In this document: piece by piece, positions 9,645-13,720 of the stretch
Numbering within the stretch: the first letter of the stretch is position 1
Layout: each line of letters begins with the position of its first letter
NCBI RefSeq assembly: GCF_000026545.1
Contig: NC_011601.1
Length of the DNA stretch: 64,000 bases
DNA from: Escherichia coli O127:H6 str. E2348/69
Lineage (GTDB): Bacteria > Pseudomonadota > Gammaproteobacteria > Enterobacterales > Enterobacteriaceae
Direction: 5' to 3' (one strand)
The notes under the pieces: generated by a model
Seen by the model: only the letters and a program-made list of their open reading frames with translations
The model's database searches: none
Told to the model about the DNA's origin: nothing
Made by a program: the position numbers and the translations under genes

Positions 9645-10574
9645 ATGGAACGACTAAAACGCATGTCGGTGTTTGCCAAAGTAGTTGAATTTGGCTCTTT
9701 TACCGCCGCCGCCAGACAGCTACAGATGAGCGTTTCGTCCATCAGTCAGACGGTGTCAAAACTGGAAGATGAGTTACAGGTAAAGCTGTTAAACCGTAGT
9801 ACACGCAGCATTGGCCTGACTGAAGCCGGCAGAATTTACTACCAGGGCTGCCGTCGGATGCTCCATGAAGTGCAGGATGTTCATGAGCAACTGTATGCCT
9901 TCAATAACACCCCCATCGGGACGCTGCGCATTGGCTGTTCTTCAACTATGGCACAAAATGTTCTCGCCGGGCTGACGGCAAAAATGCTGAAAGAATACCC
10001 AGGTTTGAGCGTCAATCTGGTTACCGGAATTCCTGCCCCCGACCTGATTGCCGACGGTCTGGATGTGGTGATCCGCGTCGGCGCGTTGCAAGATTCCAGC
10101 CTGTTTTCCCGCCGTCTGGGCGCGATGCCAATGGTGGTGTGCGCCGCAAAAAGCTATCTCACACAATACGGCATACCAGAAAAACCCGCCGATTTAAGTA
10201 GTCATTCATGGCTTGAATACAGCGTGCGACCCGACAATGAATTTGAACTGATCGCACCGGAAGGGATCTCGACTCGCCTGATCCCGCAAGGGAGATTTGT
10301 GACTAATGATCCGATGACGCTGGTGCGCTGGCTGACGGCGGGTGCCGGGATCGCCTACGTGCCGCTGATGTGGGTGATCAACGAGATCAATCGCGGGGAA
10401 CTGGAGATCCTGCTGCCACGTTACCAGTCAGACCCACGCCCGGTTTATGCGTTATATACCGAAAAAGATAAGCTGCCGCTGAAGGTACAAGTCGTGATCA
10501 ACTCGCTAACGGATTATTTTGTTGAGGTCGGTAAATTGTTTCAGGAGATGCACGGGCGCGGGAAAGAGAAGTAA
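9645..10574 (+). CDS. aaeR: LysR-family transcriptional activator AaeR, 309 aa
   Basis: ORF track; MERLKRMSVFAKVVEFGSFTAAARQLQMSVSSISQTVSKLE... helix-turn-helix N-terminus; divergent from aaeXAB. Confidence 0.95.
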   Translation: MERLKRMSVFAKVVEFGSFTAAARQLQMSVSSISQTVSKLEDELQVKLLNRSTRSIGLTEAGRIYYQGCRRMLHEVQDVHEQLYAFNNTPIGTLRIGCSSTMAQNVLAGLTAKMLKEYPGLSVNLVTGIPAPDLIADGLDVVIRVGALQDSSLFSRRLGAMPMVVCAAKSYLTQYGIPEKPADLSSHSWLEYSVRPDNEFELIAPEGISTRLIPQGRFVTNDPMTLVRWLTAGAGIAYVPLMWVINEINRGELEILLPRYQSDPRPVYALYTEKDKLPLKVQVVINSLTDYFVEVGKLFQEMHGRGKEK

Positions 10575-10637
10575 TTAATATTGTACTGTTACGTTGTACA
10601 AACCTGTGCCAACGGGTTTCCCTCACCCTAACCCCAG

Positions 10638-10656
10638 CTGTCTCTTATACACAAAT
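10638..10656 (+). repeat. Left terminal inverted repeat of the IS (outside-end-like)
   Basis: CTGTCTCTTATACACAAAT; first 9 bp identical to the inverted right end. Confidence 0.8.
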
Positions 10657-10802
10657 CCCCACCCGGGGATTTGTGATGTCTGTCAGTCTGCTTTAGGGGG
10701 ACTCTTTCCATCCGGTAGTTTCCTTCCTCCCCGGCAGCGATTTTTTGAACTTTTTCCTCACCCGTTGATCTTCTCTTATATTTCATTTTCTTCGGGTCTG
10801 TT

Positions 10803-12176
10803 ATGGTACTTTCTGATTGTTATTCATGGGCTAACGAGCAGTTTGGACATGCCCGTCTCGGTGATCCGCGTCGTACACGACGCCTTGTGTCACTGGCCTC
10901 TTCTCTCGCTCAGCATGCAGGTCTTTCTATTGTGAAATCATCCCAGTCCACTGCTCAGGTTGAAGGTGCGTACCGCCTGATACGTAACCCGTCTGTGTCC
11001 CCGCAAGCCATTGCCGAAGCCGGATTTACCGCCACTGTAAGGGCATGTGAGGCTCATCCGCTGCTCCTCGCGCTGGAAGACACCACCACCATTAACTTCA
11101 GTCACAGTACGGCATCTGATGACCTGGGGAATACCACCACTAACCCGAAGACGCGCGGGCTGCTGGCTCACTCTGTCCTGATGTACGCCCCCGACAGCGC
11201 CCTGCCAGTCGGTCTTATCGAACAGCAGCGCTGGAGTCGTGCCACGGACACCTACGGTGTTAAGCACCAGCGAAAAGAACGTCCCTATGAAGAAAAAGAA
11301 AGTTACCGCTGGCAGCAGGCTTCGGAGCGCATGGCCGAACGGCTGGGGGAGATACAGAAACGGGTAATCACTGTCTGTGACCGGGAAGCGGATATCTGGC
11401 ATTACCTGCATTATAAAGTCAGCCACGGGCAGCGCTTCGTGGTGCGTGCAGCACAGAATCGCCGGCTGGAAGAAGCACCCGGCAAGCTCTTCGAACTGCC
11501 GGAAGTCCTGGCAACCGCGGGAAGCCACACGCTGAATGTGATGCAAAAAGGCGGGCGGGCAGCCCGCCAGGCCCGGATGTTCATCAGTTACAGCGAAGTC
11601 AGCATAAAAAATCCCGACAACAGCGGCCAGGCGCTCCCGCTCACGTATGTCTGTTGCCGGGAGCAGGCAGAGGACGGCGCCTGCTGGCATCTGCTGACGT
11701 CAGAAAAAGTGGCGAGTGCCGCCGATGCGCGACGTATCGTCAGCCATTACGAGCGACGCTGGCTGATAGAGGAATACCACAAGGCGTGGAAAAGTGGTGG
11801 TACATGTGTGGAATCGCTGCGAATGCAGACCCGGGATAACCTCGAGCGCATGGTGGTTATCAAGGCGTTTATCGCGGTGCGGGTGCTGGGCCTGCGGCAG
11901 GGCGGTATCAGTGAAGAAACACAAAATGACAGCTGTGAGAAAATACTGACGCCGACAGAGTGGAAACTGCTGTGGGTTAAGCTGGAAGGAAAACCGCTTC
12001 CGTCACAGATGCCGACACTGAAATGGGCCTGTCTGAAACTGGCGAAACTGGGGCGATGGCATGACAGCAAACGCACCGGTCGCCCCGGTTGGGTAGTCAT
12101 GTGGGATGGCTGGTTCAGACTTCAGGATATGGTTGAGGGTTACCTGGTGATGAAGTCTCTTGATCAGGAGATCTGA
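10803..12176 (+). CDS. IS4-family (Tn5/IS50-type) DDE transposase, 457 aa
   Basis: ORF track; conserved Tn5 Tnp blocks GDPRRTRRLV, EGAYRLIRNP, ALEDTTT, VCDREADI, RFVVR, HYERRWLIEEYHKAWK (YREK), DNLERMV, KWACLKLAKLGRWHDSKRTG; stop codon TGA (12174-12176) lies inside the right inverted repeat as in IS50. Confidence 0.9.
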   Translation: MVLSDCYSWANEQFGHARLGDPRRTRRLVSLASSLAQHAGLSIVKSSQSTAQVEGAYRLIRNPSVSPQAIAEAGFTATVRACEAHPLLLALEDTTTINFSHSTASDDLGNTTTNPKTRGLLAHSVLMYAPDSALPVGLIEQQRWSRATDTYGVKHQRKERPYEEKESYRWQQASERMAERLGEIQKRVITVCDREADIWHYLHYKVSHGQRFVVRAAQNRRLEEAPGKLFELPEVLATAGSHTLNVMQKGGRAARQARMFISYSEVSIKNPDNSGQALPLTYVCCREQAEDGACWHLLTSEKVASAADARRIVSHYERRWLIEEYHKAWKSGGTCVESLRMQTRDNLERMVVIKAFIAVRVLGLRQGGISEETQNDSCEKILTPTEWKLLWVKLEGKPLPSQMPTLKWACLKLAKLGRWHDSKRTGRPGWVVMWDGWFRLQDMVEGYLVMKSLDQEI

Positions 12177-12187
12177 TCAAGAGACAG
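12169..12187 (-). repeat. Right terminal inverted repeat of the IS (inside-end type, contains two GATC Dam sites)
   Basis: Plus strand AGATCTGATCAAGAGACAG is the reverse complement of CTGTCTCTTGATCAGATCT. Confidence 0.85.
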
Positions 12188-12259
12188 AACCCCAGAGGGG
12201 CGAGGGGACCGTTCGTACACGGAGAAGGATTAATTATCCTTCTGAAAATACTGAAATTA

Positions 12260-13720
<1,461 letters not shown>

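What the first reader, a model, noticed from the sequence alone, without database searches (positions are those of the whole stretch)
10650..10802. Perfect hairpin abutting the IS left end, and GATC sites at both ends, suggest IS50-style control of transposase expression
Directly inside the left inverted repeat is an 11-bp perfect inverted repeat with a 4-nt loop (cacaaatcccc-accc-ggggatttgtg, 10650-10675). The element is oriented so that read-through from aaeR would enter the transposase gene, and a stable stem-loop here could attenuate such transcripts, analogous to the mechanisms IS10 and IS50 use to stay silent under external transcription. A GATC lies in a candidate -10 region (TTGAAC at 10744-10749, then tGATCt at about 10766-10771) ahead of the ATG at 10803. 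The right inverted repeat contains two GATC sites, as in the Dam-regulated IS50 inside end. Together these fit a Dam-methylation- and structure-regulated transposase, but all of it is inferred from sequence.
Basis: inference. Interest (0 to 1): 0.4.

Follow-up and report, generated by a model that had tools for sequence, protein, structure and literature searches.

The report
ISEc13 left-end hairpin: relic terminator
The hairpin is real: it is the local copy of a conserved transcription-terminator-like stem-loop that many Tn5-related insertion sequences carry just inside their left end, ahead of a Dam-site-bearing transposase promoter like that of IS50. In this element the hairpin has lost its run of U's, so whether it still stops incoming transcripts is unproven.

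Summary
The element is ISEc13 (window 10638-12187), a known IS4-family, IS50-subgroup insertion sequence sitting in the loop of a palindrome between aaeR and tldD.

**Observations.** The 11-bp hairpin, the GATC sites and the gene orientation are as described. The only correction is that TTGAAC lies at 10745-10750.

**The hairpin in relatives.** At least 45 relatives (about 50-77% transposase identity) carry a covarying 12-13-bp stem-loop at the same place. There it is followed by 6-9 T's that run into TTGAAC, which makes an intrinsic-terminator-like unit upstream of the transposase promoter. IS50 lacks this hairpin. The nearest precedent is the left-end terminator of IS200, not the RBS fold-back of IS10/IS50.

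**The hairpin in ISEc13.** An extra 68-77 nt separates the hairpin from the T-run, and the hairpin's own tail is U-poor. Present-day termination is therefore uncertain.

**Dam sites.**
- The hexamer-16 nt-GATC arrangement occurs in 43 of 51 distinct left ends, including IS50's Dam-regulated T1 promoter.
- ISEc13 keeps one of the two GATCs there.
- Its right terminal 19 bp are identical to the IS50 inside end.

**Target sites.** These elements insert into hairpin or terminator loops, which explains why they would need a terminator of their own.

**Verdict.** Ordinary biology, well supported by comparison and untested experimentally. Interest is modest.

The parts
10638..12187 (+). ISEc13, a 1550-bp insertion sequence (IS4 family, IS50 subgroup)
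   Evidence: 100% identical copies annotated 'IS4-like element ISEc13 family transposase', about 30 per genome in E. coli E2348/69. The ends are CTGTCTCTT...AAGAGACAG (repeat I25).
10630..10637 (.). Left copy of the 8-bp target duplication AACCCCAG. The right copy is at 12188-12195.
   Evidence: Read directly from the sequence. The empty site with a single copy is present in 5416 of 5426 E. coli genomes. The duplicated bases are the loop of a long intergenic hairpin. The IS50 subgroup makes 8-9 bp duplications (PMC2266710).
10638..10656 (+). Left terminal 19 bp, CTGTCTCTTATACACAAAT. It is outside-end-like, with 2 differences from the IS50 OE, and contains TTATACACA (10645-10653), the DnaA-box sequence of the IS50 OE.
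   Evidence: Alignment with IS50R. The DnaA site in the Tn5 OE is mentioned in PMC3347997. The consensus match is my own reading.
10650..10675 (+). The hairpin of the finding: an 11-bp perfect stem with a 4-nt loop. It is the homologue of the covarying terminator-like hairpin of the clade.
   Evidence: z = -3.9. The covariance model built from relatives hits it at 39 bits, E = 4e-8. Covariation in relatives is shown.
10673..10740 (+). Extra segment of about 68 nt specific to the ISEc13 lineage. It separates the hairpin from the T-run and promoter.
   Evidence: The closest relatives (66-77% aa identity) have 103-111 nt from the end to the ATG, against 165 nt here. The segment has no similarity elsewhere. 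It has no significant structure (z = 0.15).
10741..10750 (+). T-run (10741-10746) overlapping the -35-like hexamer TTGAAC (10745-10750)
   Evidence: The consensus TTTtTTGAACT is conserved across the subgroup. It aligns with IS50 CGGAAC.
10767..10770 (.). GATC 16 nt after the hexamer, positionally homologous to the first of the two Dam sites in the IS50 T1 promoter
   Evidence: 42 of 51 distinct left ends have GATC at +16, and 27 also have one at +21. IS50 Dam control is documented in PMC4265352.
10777..10782 (+). TATATT, an alternative -10-like hexamer conserved at the same offset in the enterobacterial subclade (as TATATT, CATATT, GATATC or GATACT)
   Evidence: No consensus promoter was called on the + strand here.
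10803..12176 (+). Transposase gene, 457 aa
   Evidence: Pfam Tnp_DNA_bind, DDE_Tnp_1 and Dimer_Tnp_Tn5. Tn5 transposase structures match at E = 6e-84. The YREK residues Y316, R319, E323 and K330 are invariant in alignment A3.
12155..12185 (.). Right-end 13-bp perfect inverted repeat with a 5-nt loop. The codons for K-S-L-D-Q form an inward-facing near-copy of the terminus.
   Evidence: repeat I5; z = -4.3 on + and -3.7 on -. It is conserved in 28 of 51 distinct elements, in the same clade that has the left hairpin.
12169..12187 (-). Right terminal 19 bp, identical to the IS50 inside end. GATCs are at 12170-12173 and 12175-12178, and a third is at 12162-12165.
   Evidence: last 19 bases of the IS50R and ISEc13 ends are the same.

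Best explanation
The hairpin is the ISEc13 version of an RNA stem-loop that a large clade of IS50-subgroup insertion sequences carries directly inside the outside-end-type terminus.

In the relatives the unit reads: 19-bp end, then a 12-13-bp GC-cored stem-loop, then 6-9 U's, then TTGAAC (-35), then 16 nt, then GATC(n)GATC, then about 30 nt, then ATG. The stem-loop plus U-run is an intrinsic terminator. It stops sense-direction transcripts coming from the flanking gene before they reach the transposase promoter and gene.

Such a terminator makes sense because these elements insert into the loops of hairpins, often the terminators of host genes. Each insertion therefore destroys the upstream gene's terminator and exposes the element to read-through. 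Here the upstream gene is aaeR.

In ISEc13 itself the stem is intact, and it is even lengthened by CAC/GTG. Its tail, however, has mutated to AUGUCUGU, and 68-77 extra nt now separate it from the old T-run. Termination is therefore probably weakened, and how much remains is unknown.

Downstream, the promoter region and the right end are homologous to the Dam-controlled T1 promoter and inside end of IS50. The likely consequence is that expression and right-end use are favoured just after replication, when GATCs are hemimethylated.

Shown here: the structure, its covariation, its strand, its position, the homologies and the target preference. Inferred: termination, promoter use and the Dam effect.
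For: Identity of the element.

Hairpin above chance.

Same position in relatives: 29 distinct left ends with hairpins of median -17.2 kcal/mol and a median U-tail score of 3.3. In the wider covariance-model search, 45 loci were hit at E < 1e-9.

Covariation:
- 95.4% of cells are paired, 8 of 12 pairs have changes on both sides, and 0 of 500 shuffles reach this. Slid controls score at most 0.13 against 0.54.
- On the model-fitted alignment, 97.4% are paired and 9 of 12 pairs are compensatory.

Strand: 27 G.U cells against 6 A.C cells, and the + strand is the more stable in 24 of 29.

T-run in closer relatives: the closest relatives (66-77% aa identity) have the compact hairpin-T-run-TTGAAC form. 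A diverged ISEc13-type left end next to rluA keeps hairpin plus T-run: tail score 4.5 in strain R32, and a T6-G-T3 tail in K-12 (2.2-2.8 as the script scored it).

Promoter and Dam homology: and PMC4265352.

Right end equals the IS50 inside end.

Target loops: 18 of 24 sites have at least 5 bp stems abutting the duplication, against 3.5% of control positions, P = 6e-14. This window's site is shown.

Precedent for a left-end terminator against impinging transcription: IS200 (PMC4513863).
Against: In the window copy the tail after the stem scores 1.1, against a median of 3.3 in relatives.

The terminator scan did not call the hairpin.

The old T-run at 10741-10746 is not preceded by a significant structure (z = 0.15).

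The U-poor form is the one that reached about 30 identical copies, so a strong terminator is evidently not required.

Only one GATC remains at the promoter. The -10 may have moved to TATATT, which would put the GATC in the spacer.

No consensus sigma-70 promoter is detected on the + strand.

There are no transcript, methylation or transposition data for ISEc13 in the held literature.
Confidence: 0.6

Rival explanations
1. Relic without present function. The hairpin was a terminator in the ancestor, but in ISEc13 it is only inherited sequence. It is kept because the element is young and because its 5' arm overlaps the transposase-binding end.
For: The U-tract is lost in the window type. The active high-copy form is the U-poor one. 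Stem positions 13-19 are constrained anyway as part of the 19-bp end. Most ISEc13 variants differ little in this region.
Against: The stem is perfect and longer than in relatives. Between ISEc13 variants the changes keep pairing: A to G gives G.U, and the E. fergusonii and K-12 types gain a G-C pair with a new loop. Only clearly decayed remnants break it (PK-F).
Confidence: 0.25
2. DNA-level element. The palindrome is a binding site for the transposase or a host protein, or a cruciform that assists end recognition or synapsis.
For: It abuts and overlaps the 19-bp end. It is equally stable on both strands in ISEc13. Host factors (DnaA, Fis, H-NS) are known to act at Tn5 ends (PMC3347997, and my own knowledge).
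Against: In relatives the upper stem has arbitrary, covarying sequence, and wobble pairs are tolerated on one strand only: 27 G.U against 6 A.C. That is the signature of an RNA structure, not of a protein operator or a duplex-DNA cruciform. The one-sided T-run fits transcription in the + direction.
Confidence: 0.08
3. IS10/IS50-type fold-back. In read-through transcripts the hairpin region helps to occlude the ribosome-binding site, so that only transcripts from the element's own promoter are translated.
For: The mechanism is established for IS10 and IS50 (Krebs and Reznikoff 1986; Schulz and Reznikoff 1991; my own knowledge). A 5-bp pairing ACCCG (10760-10764) with CGGGU (10793-10797) appears in the minimum-free-energy fold.
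Against: The hairpin pairs with itself, 128 nt from the ATG. Predicted accessibility of the initiation region is the same in native and read-through RNAs, 0.46 against 0.47. That test barely separated the IS50 positive control either (0.45 against 0.40), so it is weak.
Confidence: 0.04
4. Terminator or 3'-end structure for a minus-strand transcript, either an antisense regulator or outward transcription leaving the IS.
For: The stem is symmetrical in ISEc13 (z = -3.5 on the minus strand). IS10 and IS200 use antisense RNAs (PMC8450116, PMC4513863).
Against: In relatives the + strand is the more stable in 24 of 29 and carries the wobble pairs. The long T-run is on the + strand only. No promoter-like site on the minus strand points at it inside the IS.
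Confidence: 0.03

Closest known systems
IS50 / Tn5 (IS4 family, IS50 subgroup)
   Same: The transposase has the same fold and domain set (E = 6e-84 to Tn5 structures). The ends are of OE and IE type, and the right 19 bp are identical to the IS50 IE with both GATCs. The promoter module, hexamer-16 nt-GATC, is at the homologous place. A DnaA-box sequence is present in the left end.
   Different: Transposase identity is only 41%. IS50 has no hairpin between the end and the promoter. ISEc13 has one promoter GATC rather than two, 165 nt rather than 92 nt from end to ATG, and no Met at the inhibitor start. A read-through defence of the IS50 type, by RBS sequestration, was not found.
IS200 left-end bidirectional rho-independent terminator
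   Same: It is a stem-loop within the first 40 nt or so of the element, upstream of the transposase start. It is described as protecting against impinging transcription (PMC4513863).
   Different: IS200 belongs to an unrelated family with an HUH/Y1 transposase and single-strand transposition. The IS200 terminator is described as bidirectional, whereas here the U-run and the wobble pairs favour one direction. In ISEc13 itself the U-run is lost.
IS10 / Tn10 Dam and fold-back control
   Same: GATC lies in the transposase promoter and in the inner end, which couples activity to replication. IS10 also has protection against outside transcription (Roberts et al. 1985, as cited in PMC4265352; my own knowledge).
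   Different: IS10 protection is translational (fold-back inhibition) and uses the antisense RNA-OUT. Neither was seen here.
REP/BIME-targeting insertion sequences (IS1397, ISKpn1, ISPpu9/10, ISRm22)
   Same: They insert into extragenic palindromes (PMC1525189). The ISEc13 clade inserts into hairpin loops.
   Different: Those elements belong to other families or subgroups and recognise specific repeat families. Here the targets are diverse hairpins, many of them ordinary terminators, and the duplication is the 8-10-nt loop.

Membership tests
IS4 family, IS50 subgroup (ISEc13) | DDE transposase with the Tn5-type N-terminal DNA-binding domain and the Y-2-R-3-E-6-K motif | tested here: met
   Pfam PF14706, PF01609 and PF02281. 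Tn5 structures match at E = 6e-84. Y316, R319, E323 and K330 are invariant.
IS4 family, IS50 subgroup (ISEc13) | 5'-CT termini, a length of 1350-1550 bp and 8-9 bp direct repeats (PMC2266710, Table 1) | tested here: met
   CTGTCTCTT ends, 1550 bp and an 8-bp AACCCCAG duplication.
Intrinsic (rho-independent) terminator | Stable GC-rich stem with a short loop | tested here: met
   An 11-bp stem with a 4-nt loop at -17.5 to -18.6 kcal/mol. Relatives have a median of -17.2 kcal/mol.
Intrinsic (rho-independent) terminator | U-rich tract immediately 3' of the stem | tested here: not met
   The window copy has the tail AUGUCUGUCAG with score 1.1, and it was not called by the scan. The feature is met in relatives (6-9 T, median score 3.3). 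It is also met in the rluA-adjacent ISEc13-type remnant of strain R32 (score 4.5); the K-12 copy has a T6-G-T3 tail that the script scored 2.2-2.8.
Intrinsic (rho-independent) terminator | Transcripts actually end there | not testable with these tools
   This needs Term-seq, 3' RACE or in vitro transcription.
IS50-type Dam control | GATC sites overlapping the -10 of the transposase promoter | tested here: inconclusive
   One GATC lies at the position homologous to the first IS50 site. The second is absent, the working -10 is unknown (TCTTCT or TATATT), and no promoter was called.
IS50-type Dam control | GATC sites within the inside-end transposase-binding site | tested here: met
   12169-12187 is identical to the 19-bp IS50 IE, with GATCs at 12170 and 12175.
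IS50-type Dam control | Higher transposase expression and IS transposition in dam- or hemimethylated DNA | not testable with these tools
   There are no experimental data on ISEc13 in the held literature.
IS50-type Dam control | N-terminally truncated inhibitor protein made from an internal start (Tn5 Met56) | tested here: not met
   The residue aligned to Tn5 Met56 is Thr, and the first internal Met is at residue 127. Alternative start codons were not excluded.
IS10/IS50 fold-back inhibition of read-through transcripts | A segment upstream of the native start pairs with the RBS and AUG | tested here: inconclusive
   No difference in predicted accessibility (0.46 against 0.47). The same measure hardly separates the IS50 control.
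IS200-type left-end terminator | A terminator inside the left end, upstream of the transposase start, that blocks impinging transcription | tested here: inconclusive
   Position and structure match in relatives. Function is untested, and in ISEc13 the U-tract is lost.

The most novel reading that the evidence does not exclude
A whole clade of Tn5-like insertion sequences (ISEc13 and relatives in Enterobacterales, Vibrionales and Alteromonadales) are specialised 'terminator-loop' inserters. They land in the 8-10-nt loops of host hairpins or terminators and bring their own covarying replacement terminator at the left end. That terminator both restores termination for the upstream host gene and insulates a Dam-gated transposase promoter. 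On this reading, the erosion of the U-tract in the E2348/69 type of ISEc13 would be a de-insulating change linked to its expansion to about 30 copies.
Probability: 0.4. Interest if true: 0.55.

Novelty: new member of a known kind. Interest (0 to 1): 0.35.

Why it matters
ISEc13 is abundant in pathogenic E. coli, with about 30 copies in EPEC E2348/69 and remnants in more than half of complete genomes, yet it has never been studied functionally.

The comparison gives a concrete, testable regulatory map for it and for dozens of relatives:
- an end-proximal terminator;
- a Dam-site promoter homologous to IS50's;
- a Dam-site inside end.

It also shows that Tn5's close relatives solve the 'outside transcription' problem differently from Tn5 itself.

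The target preference for hairpin loops could matter in two ways. It helps predict where these elements land and how they disturb termination of neighbouring genes. It may also interest users of Tn5-derived tools. None of this overturns current understanding.

Tried and rejected
1. A second, longer stem-loop (10682-10741) abutting the old T-run looked like a possible replacement terminator. Its folding energy is no better than that of shuffles (z = 0.15), so I rejected it.

2. Fold-back test. I compared the unpaired probability of the initiation region in native and read-through RNAs across 35 elements and for ISEc13 and IS50. ISEc13 shows no difference. The IS50 positive control is barely separated, and longer RNAs pair more in general, so the test is uninformative.

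3. A consensus promoter scan found nothing on the + strand in 10638-10802.

4. Rfam found no family anywhere in 10400-12400 at E <= 1.

5. Origin of the extra 68-nt segment: a local BLAST against all fetched loci and the rest of the window hit only other ISEc13 copies.

6. Literature. Eight papers mention ISEc13, all as an annotation label. The IS4-family review does not use the word 'terminator' and says nothing about GATC in the IS50 subgroup. Searches for IS elements that target terminators found nothing on this subgroup. The Kuan and Tessman LexA paper is not held.

7. I considered whether the sequence after the hairpin (ATGTCTGTCAG) is a degenerate inverted copy of the terminus. The similarity is too weak to claim.

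8. I considered linking the presence of GATC in the ends to Dam-positive hosts. The few relatives from probably Dam-less hosts are inconsistent, so I make no claim.

Full report
**What is in the window**

Bases 10638-12187 are a 1550-bp insertion sequence with CTGTCTCTT termini and one ORF of 457 aa at 10803-12176.
- Identical copies are annotated 'IS4-like element ISEc13 family transposase'. They occur about 30 times per genome in E. coli E2348/69, and fragments occur in 2991 of 5426 complete E. coli genomes.
- The protein has the Tn5-type DNA-binding, DDE and dimerisation domains. It matches the Tn5 transposase structures at E = 6e-84, with 41% identity.
- The element lies between the convergent genes aaeR (+) and tldD (-). 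The reconstructed empty site is present in 5416 of 5426 genomes.
- The duplicated AACCCCAG is the loop of a long intergenic hairpin, z = -3.5.

**Check of the observation**

- The 11-bp/4-nt hairpin is at 10650-10675 (repeat I12). As RNA it folds at -18.6 kcal/mol, z = -3.9.
- Perfect inverted repeats of this size are rare. The window has eight such loci against 0.17 expected. Six are textbook terminators and two are the ends of this IS.
- GATC is at 10767 and the ATG at 10803.
- Two GATCs lie in the terminal 19 bp of the right end, with a third 5 bp further in.
- Only five GATCs occur in the IS, and none lies between 10867 and 12161.

**What the hairpin is**

I fetched 80 loci encoding relatives with 41-57% protein identity and seven closer ones with 56-77% identity, then delimited the elements by their termini.

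In 29 distinct left ends the first 50 nt read CTGTCTCTTATACACAAATCCC-variable stem-loop-GGGATTTTTTTTGAAC. A covariance-model search found 45 such loci. The hosts are Vibrio, Photobacterium, Xenorhabdus, Shewanella, Alishewanella, Rheinheimera, Serratia, Salmonella and others.

The stem is 12-13 bp, with a median of -17.2 kcal/mol. It is followed by 6-9 T's, giving a median U-tail score of 3.3 by a d'Aubenton-Carafa-type measure that I coded from memory, so that number is rough.

The upper stem differs between elements while pairing is kept.
- 95.4% of cells are paired and 8 of 12 pairs have changes on both sides. No shuffle out of 500 reaches this, and slid controls score at most 0.13 against 0.54.
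- On the larger, model-fitted alignment 97.4% are paired and 9 of 12 pairs are compensatory. That alignment leans towards the structure because it was fitted to it.
- Wobble pairs are on the + strand: 27 G.U against 6 A.C. The + strand is the more stable in 24 of 29.

This is therefore an RNA structure in the sense direction: a stem plus U-run, meaning an intrinsic-terminator-like unit, placed between the transposase-binding end and the promoter. IS50 has nothing there.

**ISEc13 differs from its relatives**

The closest relatives have 103-111 nt from the end to the ATG. ISEc13 has 165 nt.
- A segment of 68-77 nt (about 10673-10740) lies between the hairpin and ATTTTTTGAAC. It has no similarity elsewhere and no significant structure.
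- The covariance model matches the window either through the local hairpin or by treating the 77 nt as an insert.
- A diverged ISEc13-type left end next to rluA has the same extra segment and still has hairpin plus T-run. The tail score is 4.5 in strain R32. The K-12 copy has a T6-G-T3 tail that the script scored at 2.2-2.8.
- The E. fergusonii plasmid copy is intermediate, at 2.2-2.9. The window type has GGGGATTTGTGATGTCTG, which scores 1.1.
- The U-tract was thus eroded by substitutions that at the same time lengthened the stem (CAC/GTG).
- Between ISEc13 variants the pairing is preserved by G.U and by an added G-C pair. It is broken only in decayed remnants.

I conclude that homology to a terminator is well supported. 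Present terminator activity in this copy is doubtful.

**Why such elements would need a terminator**

In 24 independent insertions with a recognisable duplication, 18 have at least 5 perfectly paired bases abutting the duplicated 8-10 nt. Only 3.5% of 1671 control positions do (P = 6e-14).

Many targets are textbook bidirectional terminators, for example aaaaggcc-ACCTTCGGGT-ggccttttttt. An element that lands in terminator loops removes the upstream gene's terminator and is exposed to its transcripts. An internal terminator at the upstream end repairs this.

The precedent for an end-proximal terminator that protects against impinging transcription is IS200 (PMC4513863). I found no description of one in the IS50 subgroup.

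**The Dam part**

My recalled IS50 sequence was verified at 100% over 208 nt (locus L013).
- The right 19 bp of ISEc13 are identical to the IS50 inside end.
- Anchoring 51 distinct left ends on the -35-like hexamer shows GATC exactly 16 nt downstream in 42, and a second GATC 5 nt further on in 27. IS50 is among these, as CGGAAC-16-GATCTGATC.
- In IS50 these two sites regulate the T1 promoter. A Dam-insensitive promoter gives about 8-fold more T1 transcript (PMC4265352).
- Methylation of the inside end lowers its use by the transposase (Yin, Krebs and Reznikoff 1988; my own knowledge).
- ISEc13 and its enterobacterial relatives keep only the first site. They have a conserved TATATT-like hexamer 6 nt downstream, so the working -10 is uncertain. 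No consensus promoter is called.
- There is no Met at the position of the IS50 inhibitor start.

**Rivals**

- A DNA-level protein site or cruciform is disfavoured by the covariation pattern and the strand asymmetry.
- An IS10/IS50-type RBS fold-back is not indicated, but my test was insensitive.
- A minus-strand role is disfavoured by the one-sided T-run.
- A relic without function in ISEc13 remains a serious possibility.

**Verdict**

The element and the kinds of control involved are known. What is new is the recognition of a conserved end-proximal terminator-like hairpin, and of loop targeting, in this branch of the IS50 subgroup. All functional steps remain inferred.

Noticed in passing
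window 10617-10637 and 12188-12209; loci L021, L026, L045-L051, L057, L059, L065, L075, L076, L090, L098, L099, L102: Relatives of ISEc13 insert into the loops of hairpins, many of them textbook bidirectional terminators. 18 of 24 sites have stems of at least 5 bp abutting the 8-10-bp duplication, against 3.5% of control positions. The window copy sits in the 9-nt loop of a long palindrome between aaeR and tldD. Left flanks of other ISEc13 copies show a C-run 8-10 nt before the end.
   Followed up: partly
window 12155-12185: The right end has a 13-bp perfect inverted repeat. The codons for K-S-L-D-Q (AAGTCTCTTGATCAG) form an inward-facing near-copy of the terminus, 5 nt from the true end (z about -4 on both strands). 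GTCTCTTGA...TCAAGAGAC is kept in 28 of 51 distinct elements, the same clade that has the left hairpin, and is absent from IS50. No good U-tail follows on either strand. Its function is unknown.
   Followed up: partly
L012:287-364 (E. coli strain 600029, between ugd and gnd) and five other genomes: A 78-bp perfect palindrome is centred on the loop of the ISEc13 hairpin. Each arm consists of 14 nt of flank plus ISEc13 nt 1-23. The same 14-nt flank borders a full ISEc13 inserted beside IS200C in E2348/69. This looks like a snap-back or template-switch product seeded by the hairpin, not a normal insertion, because there is no direct repeat.
   Followed up: partly
L008:1501-1722 (E. coli K-12 MG1655, downstream of rluA) and about 1700 other genomes: K-12 carries a 79%-identical remnant of an ISEc13-type left end with a frameshifted N-terminal transposase fragment. 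It has the extra segment and still has a hairpin followed by a T-run. It has lost the promoter GATC, which is now GACC.
   Followed up: partly
window 10673-10740: A segment of about 68 nt specific to the ISEc13 lineage lies between the hairpin and the promoter. The E. fergusonii and K-12 variants have 11 nt more. It has no similarity to anything else fetched and no significant fold. Its origin and role are unknown.
   Followed up: partly
window 10645-10653: TTATACACA, the DnaA-box sequence of the IS50 outside end, is intact in the ISEc13 left end and in most relatives.
   Followed up: no
window 10867-12161: No GATC occurs in 1295 bp of the transposase gene, although the window averages one per 223 bp (287 in 64 kb, itself above the shuffle expectation of 235). 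IS50 has several internal GATCs, so this depletion is not a family trait.
   Followed up: no
window 10803-12176, residues 50-60 of the ORF: The residue aligned with Tn5 Met56, the start of the IS50 inhibitor protein, is Thr, and the next in-frame ATG is at residue 127. An IS50-type inhibitor is therefore not obviously encoded.
   Followed up: no
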